The translations under genes were made by a program, and so were the position numbers. From Thermoproteota archaeon (GTDB taxonomy: Archaea > Korarchaeota > Korarchaeia > Korarchaeales > Korarchaeaceae), in contig WAOH01000166.1 in NCBI GenBank assembly GCA_015521385.1, positions 1 through 33,984 of the forward strand: DNA of 33,984 nucleotides, read 5' to 3'. The notes under the pieces were generated by a model that saw only the letters and a list, made by a program, of their open reading frames with translations, had not been told where the DNA came from and searched no databases. Numbering within the stretch: the stretch's first letter is position 1; every line of letters begins with the position of its first letter. This document shows, piece after piece, positions 1 to 30,451 of the stretch.

Positions 1-590
1 AGGCCCACACTGTCCCTGTCCCATAGCAGCTCCCATAGGAGGGACGACGGTCTCGTTTGGCCAGCGATCATCTGAGCAGCGGCAGGGAACTCGTCTCTCG
101 TCGCGTCCTCTACTTTAGGCTGTTCCGGTGCCGGTCTCGCGGGCGCCTCCATCAGCACTTGGGAATCGATCTCCCTGAAGCCGAGGCTCTCGAAGAAGGG
201 AAGAGCTTCCGCGGTCGGTATAGTGTCTAGGTGGCGCATTCCCATCTCCCTAGCCAGTTCCATGCATCTCTCGACGAGCTTCCTTCCCACACCAGTTCTC
301 CTGGCCTCTTCCTTGACCCAGACCATTTGCAAGTATGCGTGCTCACCCACGGGTGTTAGGAACCTTTCAGGTACCACCTCGGCCTCACCGACCACCTTCC
401 CGTCGGACAAGGCCACGATCGCCTTGCCGCCCGACGAGTAGAGCGCCTCCAGGTACCAGCCGAACACCTGTGGATCGCCCCAGTACCCGCACTCCTTGAT
501 CCGGAGATCGAAGGTCATCTCCTTCCAGTTGGGACAGTGGATCGAGACGACCTCATCCAGTAAATCGTGCCTGAACTCAATTATCTCCAA
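1..590 (-). CDS. GNAT family N-acyltransferase (3'-truncated by window edge; not in ORF track)
   Basis: Manual translation from TTG at 590, open to the edge: MEIIEFRHDLLDEVVSIHCPNW...AIVALSDGKVVGEAEV...AYLQMVWVKEEARRTGVGRKLVERCMELAREMG...ALPFFESLGF. Contains GNAT motif A (RRTGVG) and a motif B-like FFESLGF. Start overlaps the sirtuin 3' end. Confidence 0.85.
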   Translation of the reverse strand, partial: MEIIEFRHDLLDEVVSIHCPNWKEMTFDLRIKECGYWGDPQVFGWYLEALYSSGGKAIVALSDGKVVGEAEVVPERFLTPVGEHAYLQMVWVKEEARRTGVGRKLVERCMELAREMGMRHLDTIPTAEALPFFESLGFREIDSQVLMEAPARPAPEQPKVEDATRDEFPAAAQMIAGQTRPSSLLWELLWDRDSVG

Positions 591-1351
591 GAGGGATCCT
601 CCTCCACCAGCCGGGCGAGCTCCCTGAAGATCTCCCCCGCAGGCCCTCTCAACCTGATGGTCGCCAAGCTACTTAAATTAGTTTCCTCGGGGTTCACTTC
701 CACCAAAATCTTCCCCTGTCTCGCCGCGTTAATGGGTAACAGGGCTGCAGGCATTACTACACCGCTCGTTCCCACGATGAGCACGACTTCTGCCTCAGAG
801 AAGAGCCTCTCCGCCCTCTCAAACTGGTCCATAGGAACGGGTTCCTCGAACCACACCACATCAGGCCTGAGAAGCCCTCCACACTCCTTACACCTCGGTA
901 GATCCTCCTCCGGTATGTTTCCGAAACCCAGATTGTACCGCCTGCCACACACGGTGCACCTGGTCCTCCATATGGAACCGTGAAGCTCTATGACCAGCTT
1001 GGAGCCGGCCCTCTGGTGGAGCCCGTCCACGTTTTGGGTCACCACGCCCATGAGAATCCCCCTCCTCTCCCAGTCGGCCATCACCCTATGGGCCCAGGTG
1101 GGCTCCGCCCTCGCGATCATGGACATCCTCCACTTGTACCACTCCCAGACCCTCTTGGGGTTGGACTCGAACGCCCGGGGCGTGGCCAGTTCCTCCGGTC
1201 TGTACCTGTTCCAAAGCCCGTCCTTACCCCTGAAGGTCGGAATGCCTGCCTCAGCTGAGGCCCCCGCACCGGTGAACGCCAGCACCCTTCCGGAGTGCTC
1301 CTTGATCAGGCGAGCCGCCGAGGACAGGTCCCTGGGAGCGAGCTCACTCAC
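581..1351 (-). CDS. cobB: NAD-dependent protein deacylase, sirtuin class III (CobB/Sir2)
   Basis: FTGAGASAEAGIPTFRG, TQNVDGLH, catalytic ELHG, CxxC...CxxC zinc site, RPDVVWF, VGTSG; YKWR gives the YxxR motif. Confidence 0.95.
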   Translation of the reverse strand: MSELAPRDLSSAARLIKEHSGRVLAFTGAGASAEAGIPTFRGKDGLWNRYRPEELATPRAFESNPKRVWEWYKWRMSMIARAEPTWAHRVMADWERRGILMGVVTQNVDGLHQRAGSKLVIELHGSIWRTRCTVCGRRYNLGFGNIPEEDLPRCKECGGLLRPDVVWFEEPVPMDQFERAERLFSEAEVVLIVGTSGVVMPAALLPINAARQGKILVEVNPEETNLSSLATIRLRGPAGEIFRELARLVEEDPSWR

Positions 1352-2651
1352 TCGATCTCACCTCCGGTGGGGAGCTGGGATACGGCCTCACCTCCGCCTC
1401 TAGAGGGCACCCTCCCCTGCAGACTTGGAGCAGAGGGCATGAGAGACACGCGTCTCCTACGAAACGGAGTTCCCTGATCCTCAGACACTCGTCGTGGTAC
1501 CAGATCCTCTCCCAAGGATCCCTCAGGATGTGCCCCAGAACCTTGTAGTGACTCTGGCAGGGTATCACGGATCCATCAGGCTCCACCGCTAGAGTTATGC
1601 TGCACGCCGAGCAGAACTTCGGCCCCAGACCCTCGCTCATCGGGTCCAGCTCACAGTACCGGGTCACCCCGTACCACCTGAAGTCCAGGTCCAGCTCCGT
1701 GGTGAGCTCCTTAGCCTCCGCCAATACCTCCCTCATCTCATCGAAGGAGGGCTCCAGGCCCCTCAGGTCCCTGCCCCTGCCGCTGTATATCAGCCTGTTC
1801 AGCGAGAACCCATCCACACCCAGATCAGCGACGAACCGGATCAGCGATTCCACCGTACCCATGTTCCTCCTCAGGAGGGTCGCATTGACGCTCACGTAGA
1901 CATCGAACTCCAGCAGGTTCTTGAGACCCTCGACCGTCTCCTTCCAGCTCCCCCTAACTTGGGTTATGGAATCGTGAATCTCGGGATCGCTGGACTCCAA
2001 GGTCACCTGAGCGAAATCCAATCCAGCTTCTACCAACTTACCAACGAGATCTCTGGTCAGGAGCCTCCCATTAGTCACTATACCCGAGACCATCCCGAGC
2101 CTCTGGGCCTCAGCCACCAGCTCCGGTAAGTCCTCCCTGAGGGTGGGCTCTCCACCGGTGAAGGTGACCTGAGGAACCCCCAGCTCGTGGAACTTCCTTA
2201 TCACGGCCTTCCATTCGTCCGTGCTCAGTTCCTCCCGCTCGTCGGGGCTGGAGGAGTAGCAATGGATGCAGGCATTATTGCACCTGTAGGTGAGGGCTAG
2301 GTCGACCCTGAAGGGGGCGCCGAGGGTCGACGGGTCCGGGAAGGCTGGTTTGAAACCCAAGTCGGTTACGGGATCCTCGTAACCTTCAATGAATCTCCTG
2401 AGCTTGCTAATCACCTCCTCATAGTGCCTCCTCACCTCGTCCTTCCTCATTCCCCTGTATATCCTCTTCAACTCCCGGTAAGCCTCATCCCACCCCTTGC
2501 CTGAGAGGAAGGCCTTGGCGAAGATTGCTGCCGTGTAGTTGAGGTACGCGACTCTCTGAGCGTCCACCACGAGGGCGCCCATGGCTAGGGGATCTATGCG
2601 GAGCTGGATCCTCCTACCATCCAATTTGAACGTCAGAAATTCCCTCTCCAT
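1344..2651 (-). CDS. Radical SAM/SPASM protein with N-terminal PqqD/RRE-like domain
   Basis: CNNACIHC triad, FTGGEP, SPASM CSAC..DGSVIPC..CLSCPLLQVCRGGC. The N-terminal ~85 aa (VAYLNYTAAIF..GKGWDEAYRELKRIY) resembles PqqD. Start moved to ATG 2651, which overlaps the upstream stop (TGATG). Confidence 0.9.
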   Translation of the reverse strand: MEREFLTFKLDGRRIQLRIDPLAMGALVVDAQRVAYLNYTAAIFAKAFLSGKGWDEAYRELKRIYRGMRKDEVRRHYEEVISKLRRFIEGYEDPVTDLGFKPAFPDPSTLGAPFRVDLALTYRCNNACIHCYSSSPDEREELSTDEWKAVIRKFHELGVPQVTFTGGEPTLREDLPELVAEAQRLGMVSGIVTNGRLLTRDLVGKLVEAGLDFAQVTLESSDPEIHDSITQVRGSWKETVEGLKNLLEFDVYVSVNATLLRRNMGTVESLIRFVADLGVDGFSLNRLIYSGRGRDLRGLEPSFDEMREVLAEAKELTTELDLDFRWYGVTRYCELDPMSEGLGPKFCSACSITLAVEPDGSVIPCQSHYKVLGHILRDPWERIWYHDECLRIRELRFVGDACLSCPLLQVCRGGCPLEAEVRPYPSSPPEVRSSE

Positions 2652-4324
2652 CAACCAACCCCACCTCCGGCGCAGGCACACGCGCAGCTTACACATGCGC
2701 AAGCGCATGCGCAGCTGACGCAGGCGCAGCTGACCGACGCCGTCCTCCTCCTACTGGCTCGGGGTCTGGAGGGGACGATGACCTTGGCCACCCTGTCGGC
2801 GAAGTCCTCTATGTTCCTGACGATATTCGAGGAGACTTCCTCGACCGATCTGGCGATTGTATCCGCGGCTTTCTCTATGTCCGGGATGACCGGAACGTCC
2901 ACCCCGCCACTAGGCGCTCCTGACGTATCGGGAGCCTTGGGCACCCTCGGAGCGGGGGGAATCGAGGTCCACCCACCTCTAGGCCACCATATCCACACGT
3001 CGTCCAGCGGATAGGGATAGGAGGTTACGACCACCCCCTCCTTGGGTCTCCTCCTCAATGCCCTTTTCAGGTTCCTCTCGAAATAGGGATCAGTAAGCAA
3101 CCAAGCTAGGTTATCCCTGACGAGATCGAGCTTCTCCTCGATGGGAGCGTCCTCAATCATCCTCCAAATCGATCTCACCTTGTTGTCGTAGAAGGCGAGT
3201 GTCTCCCTCCTCGAGTACCCAGATAACTCCCTCTCCACCCTCCTATGTATGAGCTTGATTACCTTAATCAGGCAATCCTCGTCTAGGGATCCATCCTCCA
3301 TCACACAGTCCAAGAACCTCCTCTCGTAGATCCTCAGATTCCTCTTCGATCCCTCCAACTTCCTCAGCTTGAGCGGATCTAGGCTCTCCACCGCCAAGAA
3401 TCCCTTCTCCACTAGGCTGGCTATGAGAACCGCCAAAATTCGCCCGTAACCGAGTTTGGCCCCTTCCAGCTTCCTCAGGTAGGCTACTTCAGTTGGAGCC
3501 ATGTTTTTGTTCGGCCCTAAGCTCTCTGCGAAGATCTCAGGTGCCTGATAGGGGAGCTTCTCTATCCACGACTTGAACAACTTGACTATGGCCACGATAG
3601 AGATTATTATCGCTCCCAGAAACACGATTCCAATGATGAAGCTGAGGTAGTCCGGAATCCCGCCACCGGCAGGCACGACCTTCTCGACGTAATCCCTCGG
3701 GAAGGAGACCCCTATCTCAAACTTGTAGTTGGGAGGGAGGTCCCTTCTCTCCCAGTAGAGGTATATCCTGCCGTCATCGAGCGCTCGCAGGTTGTCGTAG
3801 TCGGGCTGATTCTTAACCTCCCCCTTGGAGACCCCGGGAGGTAGTATCACGAAGACTTGGAGCAGTTTGATGGGAGCGTTGAACCACGAGGGTGTGAACA
3901 TGAGGCCCGCATTGCCCGGATTGGTCTCGTCCTCGTAAATGAAGTCCCTGAGTTCGACCTCCACCACGTATGTCCTACTCTCCCCCGGATCTATTGGCTC
4001 GCTTGGCCTCATCTTCACCGCGTAGTACGAGTCCTCCCTGATCTCCTCGGCATCGACCTGAACTATCCTACCGTCAGGGAAGATCTCCTCCGCCTCTAAC
4101 ACGCTGAAAGATGGGGACGGCATCCCTATCGATACGTAGCGGGCTATGGTCCCCGATTTCACCTTCAGGGTGAGGTTGTACCTCAAGTACACGGTTCCCG
4201 AACGCTGTATATCGAGAATGACTTTTTCCCTCTCTATTTCATACACTATCTGACCGCTAGTATTTATTAGAGGAATTAGGAGCGCGGAGATGAAGAGGAA
4301 TAGTAGAATAAGCCTGAGCTTCAT
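2651..4324 (-). CDS. Membrane protein (DUF2207-like architecture) with Cys-Ala repeat C-terminal tail
   Basis: N-terminal signal peptide, beta-rich extracellular domain, TM helix (YLSFIIGIVFLGAIIISIVAIV), soluble domain, Pro-rich linker, and a tail ending VSCACVSCACACACVSCACACAGGGVG. Confidence 0.8.
   Translation of the reverse strand: MKLRLILLFLFISALLIPLINTSGQIVYEIEREKVILDIQRSGTVYLRYNLTLKVKSGTIARYVSIGMPSPSFSVLEAEEIFPDGRIVQVDAEEIREDSYYAVKMRPSEPIDPGESRTYVVEVELRDFIYEDETNPGNAGLMFTPSWFNAPIKLLQVFVILPPGVSKGEVKNQPDYDNLRALDDGRIYLYWERRDLPPNYKFEIGVSFPRDYVEKVVPAGGGIPDYLSFIIGIVFLGAIIISIVAIVKLFKSWIEKLPYQAPEIFAESLGPNKNMAPTEVAYLRKLEGAKLGYGRILAVLIASLVEKGFLAVESLDPLKLRKLEGSKRNLRIYERRFLDCVMEDGSLDEDCLIKVIKLIHRRVERELSGYSRRETLAFYDNKVRSIWRMIEDAPIEEKLDLVRDNLAWLLTDPYFERNLKRALRRRPKEGVVVTSYPYPLDDVWIWWPRGGWTSIPPAPRVPKAPDTSGAPSGGVDVPVIPDIEKAADTIARSVEEVSSNIVRNIEDFADRVAKVIVPSRPRASRRRTASVSCACVSCACACACVSCACACAGGGVG
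2654..2734 (-). repeat. Coding low-complexity repeat: three VSCAC(AC)n units, 9 Cys
   Basis: Protein-level repeat encoded with mixed synonymous codons (TGC/TGT; GCC/GCA/GCT/GCG; GTC/GTA). Confidence 0.9.
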
Positions 4325-4384: not shown

Positions 4385-5110
4385 ATGATGATAGCCCCGG
4401 GCGTGGAGTATAGGGAAGGGAGGGGTGAGCTACTGGTCCAGGGCGAGATGGTCGTCCCCAGCGTGAGAAGGTTCTCCGATCTCGTCATCGTCTTGGAGAA
4501 TCCCGGTGCCCTCAAGGGGGATGGAGAGGCGTACTTCATGTACAGGGATCTCCCCCCGCTAAGGGGGAGGTGGGCCCGATTTGACGTAACGGTAATCCCG
4601 CCTTGGATGGTCGGAAGGGAGTACGCCAAGACGAAGGGCCACTATCACAAGCCCCCCTCAGCTGGCAAGCCCTCCTACCCCGAGATCTATCAGGTGCACT
4701 CCGGCAGAGCGATGTACCTCCTCCAGAGAGCGGGTGCTTCGCCCTCGGAAATAGTGGACTTCATAGTGGTGAGGGCATCACCGGGGGATGTCGTGGTCAT
4801 ACCGCCTGGTTACGGTCACGTCACAGTTAACCCGGGTGAGGAGACCCTCGTCATGAGCAACCTGATCTACAGGGAGGTGGAATCCGATTACGGGCCGTAC
4901 GAGAGGCTTAGGGGGGCCGCCTACTACTACACGATCGACGGATTCGTCAGGAACGGACGTTACTCATCGGTGCCGGAAATAAGAGAGGCTAAGCCGCTCT
5001 GGAGGTCTCAATCCATAGCGATTGACTTCTTGGAGGACGAGCGCTCCTTCTCCTGGTTGAGAGATGTTGACAGGGCTTGCGAGGAGGGGTTCCTCGGTGT
5101 TAGGTGTTGA
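4385..5110 (+). CDS. Cupin-type glucose-6-phosphate isomerase family protein
   Basis: TKGHYH, YPEIYQV, VVVIPPGYGHVTVN supply the His/His/Glu/His metal ligands of archaeal cupin PGI. ATG 4385 preferred over TTG 4355. Confidence 0.8.
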   Translation: MMIAPGVEYREGRGELLVQGEMVVPSVRRFSDLVIVLENPGALKGDGEAYFMYRDLPPLRGRWARFDVTVIPPWMVGREYAKTKGHYHKPPSAGKPSYPEIYQVHSGRAMYLLQRAGASPSEIVDFIVVRASPGDVVVIPPGYGHVTVNPGEETLVMSNLIYREVESDYGPYERLRGAAYYYTIDGFVRNGRYSSVPEIREAKPLWRSQSIAIDFLEDERSFSWLRDVDRACEEGFLGVRC

Positions 5111-5732
5111 CCTCACGGGAGAGGAGCTAATAACCTTCATTTGGAGCTTTCTAAACAGGGAAGAGATAATCACTGGGGAAAACGATGTCTTGGAGAGGGT
5201 AGCTGGGAAGGGGCTCCTGACATCAGAGAGGGTGACCACCTTCTCCTGTGACGGACCTACATACGCTATCCTGAAGTGCCCCTCCTGCGGTGCCAGCGAT
5301 TTGGAAGCGATGGAGGCCTGGATCCACACCCCTTGTGGATCGGTGATCTACGAAAGGGACGCCTGCCCGAAATGCGGGCCTATCGCAGGCGAGGAACTGG
5401 TCTCGATAGGTCCCGTGTACAGATGCAGATCCTGCGGAGCGATAGTCACCTATCCCACGGTAGAGACTCCCTGCGGGCGTCCCTTCATCGACAGTTTCGT
5501 CAGGTACAGACTGACCGGGAGGGGGAGGGAACTCATAGGGAAGGTTAGGGGGAAGTTAGAGAGGTTGCCCGACCCCAAGATAGTCTTGGCCGACCTCAAG
5601 GTGACGAGGGTAGAGGCTCTCCTCCTAGATGGACCCACTGGGGTCATCCTGAGAACTGAAGACGGATATCAGAGGGAGAGAGAGGAGAAAATCGCTGAGC
5701 TCGGACTGAAGATCAAAATCTTGGAGGTTTAG
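5097..5732 (+). CDS. Multi-zinc-ribbon protein, TackOD1-like
   Basis: CPSC, HTPC, CPKC, CRSC and a PCG motif, flanked by wHTH-like segments (LERVAGKGLL ... YRLTGRG). GTG 5097 follows GAGGAGG; alternative start 5064. Confidence 0.6.
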   Translation: MLGVDLTGEELITFIWSFLNREEIITGENDVLERVAGKGLLTSERVTTFSCDGPTYAILKCPSCGASDLEAMEAWIHTPCGSVIYERDACPKCGPIAGEELVSIGPVYRCRSCGAIVTYPTVETPCGRPFIDSFVRYRLTGRGRELIGKVRGKLERLPDPKIVLADLKVTRVEALLLDGPTGVILRTEDGYQREREEKIAELGLKIKILEV

Positions 5733-24882: not shown

Positions 24883-25869
24883 TTAGTAGAACCTTATCGC
24901 ACGATCCAGCCTAGACAGGAGCACTATCCTGCTCTCGGGGGATTCATCCAGTATATTGTAGCCGGTGAGTTCCGCTATCCTAACAGCGAAGGCCCTAACT
25001 TCCTCGTGGGTAGGCATGTTCTCCCTTCCCAATCTCCTCCTAGAGTAACCCACCCACATGTATGCCTTGGGTTCCACGTAGGTGGGCTGAGATTCCCTTA
25101 TCAGGCGGGAGAATTCCTCTATCACCCTATCGCTCATATTAAATCCCTTAATCAGGGGTATCCTCATCACCGTGGGAGACGAGAAGGATTGCAGCATCTC
25201 GAGAGTCCTCTGAAGTCTTGACCAAGCGTCGGGCCACAACGGGCGAGTTATCTCCATATACAATTTCTCGTTCGGAGCGGGAACGGTGACGTAAAGCTGG
25301 GTGGGTTCCCTTTCCAGGCTTTCCAGTCTCTCCGGGAGGGTACCATTTGTAACGATGAAGGTCGTCATCCCCCGCTTCGCGTAAGCATCCACCAGCCCCC
25401 CTATATGGGGATAGAGGGTCGGCTCACCCGTGAGGGAGATGGCAGCGTGTTTCGGTTCCTCTGCCTCGTACACCCACTCCTTCCTGTACACCTTCACCCC
25501 CTTATACCCCTGAACTATCATCCTCTGCAACCTGATGCTCTCCTCTGCTATGTCCTCCGGGTCGTCCCACCTAGCACCCTCCTCTGGAACTTCCTTCCAC
25601 CTGAACTCAGCAGGAACGTCGCTTACATTCAGCCTCCAGCAGTACAGACACTGCAAGTTGCAGAAGGAAGCGGTTGGGGTCATCTGCAGGCATCTCCACG
25701 AGGGGATCCCGTAGAACTTATGCTTGTAGCAGGTTCTCCCCTCCATCAGAGCTTTTCTGAACCAGTAACAGGGTTTCATGGCTGAATGATTCAGAATTAT
25801 CTTGTATCCCTGCTTCTCCATGAGTTTCCTAACGTGATCGGGTATCCTGACGAGACCGGTGGATAACAT
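24883..25869 (-). CDS. twy1: 4-demethylwyosine synthase TYW1/Taw1 (radical SAM)
   Basis: HSAMKPCYW, CYKHKFYGI, CLQMTP, CNLQCLYCWR, HAAISLTGEP, EPKAYMWVGYSR. Confidence 0.95.
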   Translation of the reverse strand: MLSTGLVRIPDHVRKLMEKQGYKIILNHSAMKPCYWFRKALMEGRTCYKHKFYGIPSWRCLQMTPTASFCNLQCLYCWRLNVSDVPAEFRWKEVPEEGARWDDPEDIAEESIRLQRMIVQGYKGVKVYRKEWVYEAEEPKHAAISLTGEPTLYPHIGGLVDAYAKRGMTTFIVTNGTLPERLESLEREPTQLYVTVPAPNEKLYMEITRPLWPDAWSRLQRTLEMLQSFSSPTVMRIPLIKGFNMSDRVIEEFSRLIRESQPTYVEPKAYMWVGYSRRRLGRENMPTHEEVRAFAVRIAELTGYNILDESPESRIVLLSRLDRAIRFY

Positions 25870-29347: not shown

Positions 29348-30451
29348 TCAGGCCCCTATAACCCAGCGAGCCACATAACTCCTCGGACACTGGACGGCGC
29401 CCCTGTAGTAGGGGCAGAACGAGCACGTGGGACTGTTTCCCCAGCAGTCGAACTCGTTACTATTGGCTATGTGACATCCATCCCACAGGAGGCAATCGTT
29501 ACACGACGGGAAGTCGGCTATTCTGACTTTAGCCCTGAACGATAAGTACTCGGGGGACCACCAGATCTCCCTCAGGCTCCTCTCCTTCAGGTCGCCAAAG
29601 GCGAGCTGTTTCACCTCTACCTCCTTGCCATCTATCCAAGCCCTGTAATCATGTAGAGTGAATAGGCATGGGACCACCTTCCCGTCGAACGTGATAGCGA
29701 AGGCTCTCTCCTCGATGAAGGGACACCTTCTCTCGGTCTTGTAGTAGAAGAAGGGCTCTATTACCCTGACGTGGTGGAGCATCGAGAGAGTTCTGACCTT
29801 CTCCATTATCTTGGAGATACCGTCGGGCTGCACTTTGTCGTGTATCTGCTCATGAGCTATGGAGGGATGAGTAGCTATGAGATTTGAAAGGAGAACGCCT
29901 CTAGCTCCCACGTCCGCAGCCCATTCTATGAGGTTCGGGAGCTTATTTACCGTGCTCTTAAGGAGGACGGTAGAGATCCAGAGCTCCACCCCGTCCCTGC
30001 TTGCCAACTCCCTTATTCCCCTCTCCACCACGTGGAAGCTCGATCCTACTCTAATCCTCCTGTAAATCTCCGGATCGGTGACATCCACGCTGACGAAAAC
30101 CCACGAGAAGTGACGACTTATCACATCTGCCTTTCTCAGGAGGGTGGTTCCGTTGGTGATCATTCCAAGTTCGAAGTCCTTCGCTGCTTTCACAGCGAAC
30201 TGCTCGAATCTGGGGTGTATGGTAGGTTCTCCCCATCCGCTGAACCAGAGATCCTCCACCCCAACATCGCTCAGCTCTCTCAGCACCCGATCGAACAACT
30301 CGTCGCTCATGAACCCTATCCTCTCGCTCCAGCTCTGTCTATAACAGAATTCACAATTCAGGTTGCAGGAGGTCGTCAGTTCTACGTGCGCTTCCCTAGG
30401 TGGATCGGGATCAGGGATGTAGAAGCCTCCGTGTACCCTAACCCTCTCCAA
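29348..30451 (-). CDS. Radical SAM/SPASM protein, tungsten-cofactor oxidoreductase maturase-like
   Basis: CNLNCEFC, SGWGEP, RCPFIEE..DGKVVPC, and a Cys-rich end (FPSCNDC..GC..DCWGNSPTCSFC..VQCP) recalled as typical of that family. Confidence 0.75.
   Translation of the reverse strand: MERVRVHGGFYIPDPDPPREAHVELTTSCNLNCEFCYRQSWSERIGFMSDELFDRVLRELSDVGVEDLWFSGWGEPTIHPRFEQFAVKAAKDFELGMITNGTTLLRKADVISRHFSWVFVSVDVTDPEIYRRIRVGSSFHVVERGIRELASRDGVELWISTVLLKSTVNKLPNLIEWAADVGARGVLLSNLIATHPSIAHEQIHDKVQPDGISKIMEKVRTLSMLHHVRVIEPFFYYKTERRCPFIEERAFAITFDGKVVPCLFTLHDYRAWIDGKEVEVKQLAFGDLKERSLREIWWSPEYLSFRAKVRIADFPSCNDCLLWDGCHIANSNEFDCWGNSPTCSFCPYYRGAVQCPRSYVARWVIGA

What the first reader, a model, noticed from the sequence alone, without database searches (positions are those of the whole stretch)
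1344..4324. Membrane protein with a 9-Cys (Cys-Ala)n tail coupled to an RRE-radical SAM/SPASM enzyme: candidate membrane-tethered RiPP-like or protein-modification system
Seen: the 557-aa membrane protein ends in SRPRASRRRTAS-VSCACVSCACACACVSCACACAGGGVG. Its stop overlaps (TGATG) the start of a radical SAM/SPASM enzyme with a PqqD-like N-terminal domain. Known: RRE plus SPASM radical SAM enzymes (sactipeptide/ranthipeptide maturases such as AlbA and CteB, and PqqE) bind a peptide via the RRE, and several form Cys thioether crosslinks. Inference: no small precursor ORF is visible, so the Cys-Ala tail, cytoplasmic by signal peptide plus single TM topology, is the likely substrate. The preceding amphipathic helix could act as leader and the RRR cluster as a cleavage site. 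That would make an archaeal surface/receptor protein carrying its own core peptide. Alternatively the tail is a metal or Fe-S scaffold. Similar Cys/Gly tails occur on other uncharacterised membrane proteins, but I know of no characterised example.
Basis: partly seen in the sequence, partly recalled or inferred. Interest (0 to 1): 0.9.

Follow-up and report, generated by a model that had tools for sequence, protein, structure and literature searches.

The report
Enzyme-matured cysteine tail on membrane protein
A membrane protein ending in an almost invariant cysteine-alanine repeat is nearly always encoded beside one peptide-modifying radical-SAM enzyme in many archaea and bacteria, which likely means the enzyme chemically cross-links the tail of a full-size, membrane-anchored protein instead of making a small secreted peptide.

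Summary
Observation confirmed. A 557-aa single-pass membrane protein ends in a 9-Cys (Cys-Ala)n-GGG tail. Its stop overlaps the start of an RRE-radical SAM-SPASM gene. The tail is the protein's best-kept part. The pair is tightly linked: 77 of 80 enzyme-anchored loci show the tail (3 are contig ends); 60 of 65 tail-anchored loci show the enzyme, against 0 of 15 chance matches. The two genes are also present or absent together in three sampled genome groups. Enzymes split by tail type (Cys-Ala versus Cys-His-Ser-Ala), not by host group. The RRR cleavage idea fails (5 of 228 carriers), and no protease, exporter or small precursor recurs. A better RRE docking site is a juxtamembrane YxxPxI motif about 270 residues before the tail; plain DUF2207 relatives lack it. 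Best reading: in-place, sactionine-like cross-linking, as StsB does on CACAC. Chemistry and binding are untested. I found no named family. The tail is in print only as 'Other Uncharacterized' supplementary rows (PMC10288494). This scan found the pair before on other DNA (e1-3164004).

The parts
2651..4324 (-). Carrier: 557-aa single-pass membrane protein, distant DUF2207/TIGR04222 relative (P0001)
4253..4324 (-). Predicted signal peptide, residues 1-24
   Evidence: hydropathy; model helix 2-22
3683..4252 (-). Predicted extracellular beta-sandwich, residues 25-214, with the fold of the ribophorin I/Ost1 lumenal domain and the M1 aminopeptidase N-domain
   Evidence: 6s7o_E Z 15.6, rmsd 2.6, 175 aligned
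3575..3649 (-). Transmembrane helix, residues 226-250
3524..3550 (-). Juxtamembrane Y259-x-x-P262-x-I264-x-x-E267: candidate RRE recognition sequence (binding untested)
   Evidence: Y 98/99, P 96/99, E 96/99 in A3; 0 of 18 plain DUF2207; motif class from PMC12710340
3053..3505 (-). Cytoplasmic helical domain, residues 274-424; weak likeness to GOLPH3 and to the TIGR04222 domain
   Evidence: 3kn1_A Z 6.8, rmsd 4.4, 166 aligned over model 274-499 (weak); TIGR04222 in 4 of 45 homologues, best E 2.9e-6
2777..2881 (-).
2729..2776 (-). Variable Ser/Arg/Pro linker holding the RRR; not conserved
2654..2728 (-). (Cys-Ala)n-GGG tail, residues 533-557, 9 Cys; likely core region
   Evidence: column conservation 0.89 for 541-557 against 0.14-0.62 in other 20-residue blocks
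2662..2668 (-). Shine-Dalgarno-like GGAGGTG inside the tail's Gly codons, 10 nt before the enzyme's ATG; with the TGATG overlap it suggests translational coupling
   Evidence: sequence
1344..2651 (-). 435-aa RRE-radical SAM-SPASM enzyme (P0002)
2376..2642 (-). Predicted RRE (PqqD-like) domain, residues 4-92
2259..2282 (-). CxxxCxxC radical-SAM motif (C124, C128, C131)
   Evidence: 89 of 89 in A4
1401..1655 (-). SPASM region: C347, C365, C402, C405, C411, C415 invariant; C333 in 87 of 89; the usual last AuxII Cys is absent here (34 of 89 have a later Cys)

Best explanation
The enzyme is a dedicated partner of the membrane protein and likely cross-links the Cys residues of its cytoplasmic tail in place, most likely as sulfur-to-alpha-carbon thioethers, with the product likely staying anchored in the membrane. 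Shown by sequence: the anatomy of both proteins, the invariant tail, the near-obligate pairing, and matched tail and enzyme subtypes. Inferred: the RRE docks on the YxxPxI motif just inside the membrane. A flexible Pro/Ser/Gly linker would then feed the tail, about 270 residues further on, into the active site. The Cys sulfurs would be joined to small Ala/Gly/Ser residues in a hairpin, as StsB does on the CACAC core of StsA. The matured tail would act as a rigid signalling or metal-binding element of a membrane complex, together with a two-TM partner and, in some lineages, a Cys-less copy of the enzyme and a methyltransferase.
For: Pairing: 76 of the 80 best enzyme loci have a C-terminal tail, 1 has it internally, and 3 end at the contig edge. 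60 of 65 real tail loci have the enzyme in the flank, against 0 of 15 chance matches; 2 of the other 5 have it elsewhere in the genome. Genome counts, carrier/enzyme/both: own phylum 37/36/36 of 43; class of G050 25/22/21 of 121; class of G048 37/40/37 of 121. Gene order varies while the link stays, and both genes are broken together in G060. The enzyme tree splits by tail type (SH-aLRT 100), and the data reject own-phylum enzymes (p-AU 1.2e-75) and Chloroflexota enzymes (p-AU 4.3e-5) as one side of a branch. The closest solved structure by sequence and by fold is the sactisynthase SkfB. Three of five mapped active-site positions (Y132, T165, Q366) are identical to SkfB and none to PqqE, SuiB or CteB (my mapping). 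StsA has a WxxPxI leader and a CACAC core giving three Cys-Gly sactionines (PMC10288494 passages and supplement; PMC12710340 passages). The motif [YWF]xxPx[ILVMAF] follows the TM in 164/170, 41/47, 9/11 and 86/97 carriers of four types, in 0/23 clostridial carriers (whose enzyme RRE is diverged) and in 0/18 plain DUF2207. CrpC shows that such enzymes can cross-link a large archaeal protein (PMC13692751).
Against: No chemistry was tested. C333 (87 of 89) lies in the same loop region as an AuxI ligand of SuiB (the SuiB ligand assignment is recalled) and could fill AuxI. That would leave no open iron for a substrate thiol, which thioether synthases such as CrpC are predicted to need. The tail has more Cys (9) than obvious acceptors, and cross-strand pairing in a CxxC hairpin would put Cys opposite Cys (inference). 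Y and T at the first two active-site positions are common in radical SAM enzymes generally. Plain DUF2207 proteins carry a related Y-x-x-x-P-P at the same place, so the YxxP may be structural; the control set is one class only. Clostridial systems keep the pair without the motif. The tested clades were named after seeing a first tree, and clostridial, pseudo-enzyme and outgroup rows were left out.
Confidence: 0.55

Rival explanations
1. The enzyme modifies the tail in place but by Cys oxidation rather than cross-linking (thioaldehyde, then thiooxazole, as SbtM does). This would build a membrane-tethered metal-binding polymer, an anaerobic counterpart of the predicted MNIO/TIGR04222 system.
For: C333 could complete AuxI, as in non-thioether SPASM enzymes. 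SbtM is a SPASM enzyme that turns Cys into thiooxazole (PMC9204691 passages). The carrier is distantly related to TIGR04222 membrane proteins, whose Cys-rich tails are proposed MNIO substrates. Alternating free thiols, and His in the sister tails, suit metal binding.
Against: The enzyme is no closer to SbtM than to many other SPASM families (E 1.2e-25 against 8.9e-43 for PqqE). SbtM acts on a Gly-Cys motif, while the tail is Ala-Cys. No metal-transport genes recur among neighbours.
Confidence: 0.2
2. The tail stays unmodified and binds metal or Fe-S clusters, tethering or feeding the enzyme at the membrane. The enzyme would act on some other substrate, perhaps together with the methyltransferase.
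For: Cys at every second residue (or Cys/His every fourth in the sister family) puts thiols on one face (inference). A Zn-ribbon two-TM partner is in 56 of 80 and a methyltransferase in 14 of 80 enzyme loci. Cys-less enzyme copies (15 of 80) keep the RRE and barrel but cannot bind the SAM cluster.
Against: The RRE, the recognition-like motif and the matching of enzyme subtype to tail subtype are what an enzyme-substrate pair predicts. The methyltransferase is missing from most loci and has no close match in this genome (best 56 bits against 157-305 for cassette members).
Confidence: 0.13
3. The membrane protein is a precursor from which the modified tail is cut at basic residues and released as a RiPP.
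For: Basic residues are common in the linker in this phylum. An unlinked housekeeping protease could do the cutting.
Against: RRR in 5 of 228 and any dibasic pair in 61 of 228 carriers. No recurrent protease or exporter. The ectodomain and cytoplasmic domain are conserved across domains of life, more than a mere leader would need.
Confidence: 0.1
4. The two genes are only neighbours, and the Gly-rich end is kept because it doubles as the next gene's ribosome-binding site.
For: GGAGGTG lies in the tail's Gly codons here.
Against: The tail is kept where the enzyme lies upstream or far away (G001, G002, G005, L152, clostridia), and third codon positions vary freely. Joint presence and absence holds in three groups.
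Confidence: 0.02

Closest known systems
StsA/StsB/StsC sactipeptide system, Streptomyces sparsogenes (PMC10288494: section 7, passages, supplement; PMC12710340: passages)
   Same: RRE plus rSAM/SPASM; W/YxxPxI recognition motif; CACAC Cys spacing followed by small residues
   Different: StsA is a short soluble peptide with three Cys and a GxGxG acceptor run, and its RRE is a separate protein. Here the RRE is fused, the substrate is 557 aa and membrane-anchored, a folded domain lies between motif and core, and there are 9 Cys. P0002 scores far under the StsB cut-off (86 against 625 bits).
SkfB sactisynthase (PDB 6efn)
   Same: Best solved match by sequence (E 1.4e-35) and by fold (Z 29.0), RRE included; shares Y, T and Q at mapped active-site positions
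   Different: 113 against a cut-off of 300 bits; ours has a full SPASM Cys set; SkfB's substrate is a short peptide (recalled).
CrpA/CrpC of Methanococcus voltae (PMC13692751: abstract, results, discussion, supplement search)
   Same: Archaeal RRE-rSAM-SPASM shown to put thioethers on a Cys-rich C-terminal region of a large protein
   Different: CrpA (28.8 kDa) has C-X-X-Q/D repeats and an N-terminal recognition region, and CrpC is TIGR04463 with 3+4 Cys ligation. Our tail has no acidic or amide acceptor and sits on a membrane protein. The three supplementary files held name no Korarchaeota, Bathyarchaeota, DUF2207, Anaerolineae or Methanomassiliicoccales.
TIGR04222 membrane proteins with MNIO enzymes (PMC12452194: passages)
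   Same: Integral membrane proteins with low-complexity Ser/Gly/Cys C-termini proposed as enzyme substrates; weak domain likeness (4 of 45 homologues)
   Different: Below cut-off; partner is an MNIO; mostly Actinomycetota; tails predicted periplasmic; looser link (a third of genomes lack MNIO); also untested.
DUF2207 proteins (PF09972/PF20990; PMC10457818: abstract)
   Same: Signal peptide, beta-sandwich ectodomain, TM, helical cytoplasmic domain, small-residue tail; A3 finds them at E 1e-6 to 1e-18
   Different: Plain members end in Gly/Ser without Cys, lack YxxPxI and have no enzyme match in the flanks (0 of 30 loci).
(Cys-His-Ser-Ala)n-tailed sister family (PF27846 in precomputed labels; weak TIGR04117)
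   Same: Homologous carrier (E 6e-28) with a sister enzyme clade and a two-TM partner; one hybrid tail (P0327)
   Different: Cys every fourth residue with His; also uncharacterised; noted many times by this scan.

Membership tests
RRE-dependent sactipeptide systems (SkfAB, StsABC) | CxxxCxxC radical-SAM enzyme with SPASM/twitch domain | tested here: met
RRE-dependent sactipeptide systems (SkfAB, StsABC) | RRE (three strands, then three helices) | tested here: met
   predicted model; PqqD in 30 of 45 homologues; superposition on SkfB and SuiB N-termini
RRE-dependent sactipeptide systems (SkfAB, StsABC) | Short ribosomal precursor with N-terminal leader | tested here: not met
   carrier is 557 aa; no conserved small ORF in 92 loci
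RRE-dependent sactipeptide systems (SkfAB, StsABC) | Recognition sequence bound by the RRE | tested here: inconclusive
   YxxPxI conserved and absent from controls; binding not tested
RRE-dependent sactipeptide systems (SkfAB, StsABC) | Open iron site on AuxI for the substrate thiol | tested here: inconclusive
   7 conserved Cys for 8 sites; C333 may fill AuxI
RRE-dependent sactipeptide systems (SkfAB, StsABC) | Cys-S to C-alpha cross-links in the product | not testable with these tools
   needs mass spectrometry
RRE-dependent sactipeptide systems (SkfAB, StsABC) | Protease or exporter for a released product | tested here: not met
   none recurs among clustered neighbours; flanks were 1.5-5 kb
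Ranthipeptide / Crp systems (CteB, PapB, CrpC) | Cys followed by Asp/Glu/Gln-type acceptor motifs (C-X-X-Q/D in CrpA) | tested here: not met
   tail residues 533-557 are only C, A, V, S, G
Ranthipeptide / Crp systems (CteB, PapB, CrpC) | Enzyme over a curated family cut-off | tested here: inconclusive
   none of the best 25 of 82 NCBIfam hits reaches its cut-off; TIGR04463 is not among the 25 shown
DUF2207 | PF09972 N-terminal domain | tested here: inconclusive
   no hit for P0001; homologue P0060 25.4 against cut-off 24.4; Atlas neighbours at 0.98, with DUF2207 in 20% of one cluster
DUF2207 | PF20990 C-domain and Gly-only tail | tested here: not met
   no PF20990 hit; G048, G173, G174, G179, G189 and G204 hold carriers but no PF20990 match; tail is Cys-Ala
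TIGR04222/MNIO | TIGR04222 over cut-off | tested here: not met
   no hit for P0001; 4 of 45 homologues weak
TIGR04222/MNIO | MNIO gene neighbour | tested here: not met
   the recurrent enzyme neighbour is a radical SAM
TIGR04117 Cxxx-repeat targets | Cys every fourth residue; model over cut-off | tested here: not met
   no hit in 45 Cys-Ala carriers; 4 of 8 sister carriers score 12-16 against 50 bits
SbtM thio(seleno)oxazole system | Gly-Cys/Sec motif and thiooxazole product | tested here: inconclusive
   no Gly-Cys in this tail; enzyme 90 against 350 bits; product untestable

The most novel reading that the evidence does not exclude
A cross-domain class of single-pass receptors whose cytoplasmic tail is turned into a poly-thioether hairpin by a dedicated radical-SAM enzyme. 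The enzyme docks on an internal leader motif next to the membrane, with a whole folded domain between leader and core. Cys-less copies of the enzyme serve as readers or partner subunits, and a two-TM partner ties the module to PspA-type envelope-stress machinery.
Probability: 0.3. Interest if true: 0.88.

Novelty: new variant of a known kind. Interest (0 to 1): 0.7.

Why it matters
RiPP-type radical-SAM chemistry is known almost only on short peptides, with a few protein cases such as CrpA. A membrane-anchored substrate with an internal recognition site would extend leader/core logic to receptors. It would explain a widespread orphan enzyme clade that mining tools logged only with truncated 'precursors', and give a handle on the DUF2207/TIGR04222 superfamily, whose small-residue tails have no known role. 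The prediction is cheap to test: a soluble 306-residue cytoplasmic part, one enzyme and two point mutants.

Tried and rejected
Complex prediction of the enzyme with carrier residues 468-557: no verdict (score 0.02, mark 0.32). The profile search of 50% representatives was never run, so no family-size count from it. No RNA holder was listed. Viral contigs: 25 stretches match the Cys-His-Ser-Ala pattern, none with a carrier or enzyme hit; the Cys-Ala pattern was not scanned there. Selenocysteine: one TGA at a Cys position in G092's tail, but no SelD over cut-off there, so likely a nonsense change or read error; the tail scan could not see TGA codons. Small precursor ORFs: none conserved. The RRR cleavage site was rejected. 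The sirtuin and GNAT genes overlapping downstream are kept in two same-genus genomes, but the pair is not kept directly downstream in the loci fetched from other genera, so they are not counted as parts. Literature: 10 searches. DUF2207 with radical SAM gave 0 papers; the motif string gave 474 papers, the 20 listed unrelated by title, none opened; searches gave no paper on this system by title or abstract start. Subscription papers and bioRxiv supplements were not searchable and could hold it. Supplement figures of PMC10288494 (active-site profiles) were not visible, so position 3 of that profile is unmapped.


Full report
Observation. The two ORFs, the 9-Cys tail and the TGATG overlap are as described. 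Named homologues point to Korarchaeota. There is no room for a small precursor: the enzyme gene overlaps the carrier upstream and a sirtuin gene downstream. The tail is the only one of its kind at an ORF end in this genome. All 120 listed homologues keep it. It is the best-conserved block in a 99-row alignment whose rows run from 21 to 88% identity, and it is held at protein level while third codon positions vary.

The enzyme. It has Radical_SAM and SPASM domains and reaches no NCBIfam cut-off among the best 25 of 82 hits. The model (pLDDT 89.8) shows an N-terminal strand-strand-strand-helix-helix-helix unit with one extra strand. PqqD is hit by 30 of 45 homologues, and SkfB and SuiB align over the whole chain including their N-termini. 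Six SPASM Cys are invariant in 89 rows and C333 is in 87. The usual last AuxII Cys is absent here, and 34 rows have a later Cys. Which iron is open is therefore unsettled. Using the landmarks of PMC10288494 (section 7 read), I mapped five of six active-site positions. Ours are Y, T, T, Q, S. SkfB has Y, T, S, Q, L; PqqE S, S, S, H, A; SuiB F, L, S, I, A; CteB F, F, S, H, Q. This leans towards a sactisynthase but is modest evidence.

The carrier. The model (pLDDT 85.3, pTM 0.51) shows a signal helix, a beta-sandwich, one TM, a helical domain, a Pro-rich linker, a helix pair and a disordered tail. The ectodomain matches the ribophorin I/Ost1 lumenal fold (Z 15.6) and the cytoplasmic domain weakly matches GOLPH3 (Z 6.8). 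The protein is a distant DUF2207/TIGR04222 relative but passes neither model itself. Plain DUF2207 proteins from one bacterial class end in Gly/Ser runs with no Cys and have no enzyme match in 30 loci with 1.5-kb flanks.

Co-occurrence. Of these, 65 were real tails (64 by script, L028 added by hand; L038 and L039 share a contig) and 15 were chance matches. The enzyme was in the flank of 60 of 65 (57 by script, plus L028, L003 at the locus edge and the split L021) and of 0 of 15. L010 and L073 have it elsewhere in the genome; L016 and L035 had no match in their assemblies and sit at contig ends; L006 (2 kb) was not searched. From the enzyme side, the best 80 of 571 metagenome relatives gave 76 C-terminal tails, one internal tail and three contig ends; these are close relatives only. 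At genome level, carrier/enzyme/both were 37/36/36 of 43, 25/22/21 of 121 and 37/40/37 of 121. The exceptions in the second set were three contig ends, one genome with both genes broken, and one plain DUF2207 without tail or enzyme. Kin are not independent, so I give no p-value.

Subtypes. Tails come as Cys-Ala with a VS turn (most archaea), with an AG turn (Chloroflexota and others), as one run (Thermoplasmatota, Heimdallarchaeota), as a clostridial form with a short extension, and as a Cys-His-Ser-Ala repeat. In the Chloroflexota sample all 19 high-scoring enzymes went with high-scoring carriers. Of 15 fetched low-scoring loci, 13 showed a carrier, all with the His-type tail. Enzymes split by tail type and not by host, with the caveats given in the Against line.

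Recognition site. RRR is rare before the tail. A motif right after the TM is far better kept: Y259, P262 and E267 in 96-98 of 99 rows. It occurs in four carrier types, but not in 23 clostridial carriers, whose enzyme N-domains score under 11 bits on an RRE profile that 154 of 155 Cys-Ala-type and 18 of 19 His-type enzymes pass at 15 bits; the profile was built from Cys-Ala-type enzymes. It is also absent from 18 plain DUF2207 proteins (the segment was located in 20 of 30 loci, and two wrong ORFs were dropped). W/Y/LxxP/L/I is the motif bound by PqqD, StsC and FusE-type RREs (PMC12710340 passages). The segment is low-confidence coil in the model. A word look-up found no earlier scan note on this motif. 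It remains a hypothesis.

Other partners. A two-TM Zn-ribbon protein is in 28 of 64 tail loci and 56 of 80 enzyme loci, a Cys-less enzyme copy in 19 and 15, and a methyltransferase in 14 and 14. In this genome a two-TM winged-helix homologue lies elsewhere, behind pspA (G000:C75:8410-9537; E 6.5e-21). It is in 36 of 43 genomes of the phylum and missing from five of the six that lack the carrier. In G004, G005 and L156, pspA and this gene lie beside the cassette. Two-enzyme complexes have a precedent in TrnC/TrnD (PMC12093266 abstract), though both of those are active enzymes.

Known or new. No paper found describes the system (searches listed under Tried and rejected). Three Cys-Ala tails and one His-type tail appear as short 'Other Uncharacterized' precursors in the supplement of PMC10288494. 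They match the C-terminal ends of these membrane proteins. This scan noted the same pair on another genome (e1-3164004) and the His-type sister many times. It works like StsABC and CrpAC but fails membership in both on defining features.

Verdict. A real, dedicated, widespread pair; new variant of a known kind; interest 0.7. In-place modification of the tail is about 75% likely, thioether chemistry about 55%. The biological output is the weakest step.

Noticed in passing
G000:C75:8410-9537 (L242:3411-4538): pspA followed by a two-TM winged-helix gene homologous to the cassette's third gene; co-absent with the cassette in five genomes, including 95% and 98% complete ones; weak EAP30/Vps36 hit (E 2e-4).
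   Followed up: partly
L007:3350-4519, L057:5406-6572 and others: Paralogue of the enzyme with RRE and barrel but no CxxxCxxC (1-3 Cys in most); two separate origins on the quick tree, one type keeping only the last SPASM Cys group.
   Followed up: partly
L239:4317-8716, L240, L241: One genus of the own phylum has the Cys-His-Ser-Ala type instead, with a 400-aa coiled-coil gene between enzyme and carrier; a coiled-coil gene of similar size follows the enzyme in His-type Chloroflexota loci.
   Followed up: partly
P0327: Promethearchaeota protein with a hybrid tail: His-type repeats followed by a Cys-Ala run and GGG.
   Followed up: no
L034:2906-4216 and other clostridial loci: Short carrier lacking the cytoplasmic domain, some with a Zn ribbon fused between TM and tail, plus a conserved extension after GGG; enzyme upstream with a diverged N-domain.
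   Followed up: partly
L156:2899-4944: Carrier whose tail is followed by about 90 more residues; pspA and the two-TM gene lie just downstream of the enzyme.
   Followed up: no
L281:4193-4262 (G092): In-frame TGA at a Cys position of the tail; no SelD over cut-off in that genome.
   Followed up: yes
L216, L038, G189, G044: Two carrier copies with one enzyme in the same locus or genome.
   Followed up: no
L009:3823-4209 and six more Chloroflexota loci: PAS-only protein within or beside the cassette, between enzyme and pseudo-enzyme in several.
   Followed up: no
L248, L249, L252 (viral contigs): Short frames made of Ala-Cys-His-Ser repeats with no carrier or enzyme hit nearby; coding status unknown.
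   Followed up: no
window 3-1351 (-): CobB-type sirtuin (over the NF001753 cut-off) and a GNAT overlap the enzyme's end; kept in the two same-genus genomes fetched.
   Followed up: partly
window 29348-30451 (-): A second radical SAM/SPASM gene unrelated to this clade (65 bits on A2), upstream of the TYW1-like gene at 24883-25869.
   Followed up: no
window 5064-5732 (+): Zn-ribbon protein with a weak TackOD1 hit (E 1e-6, under cut-off) overlapping the GPI gene.
   Followed up: no
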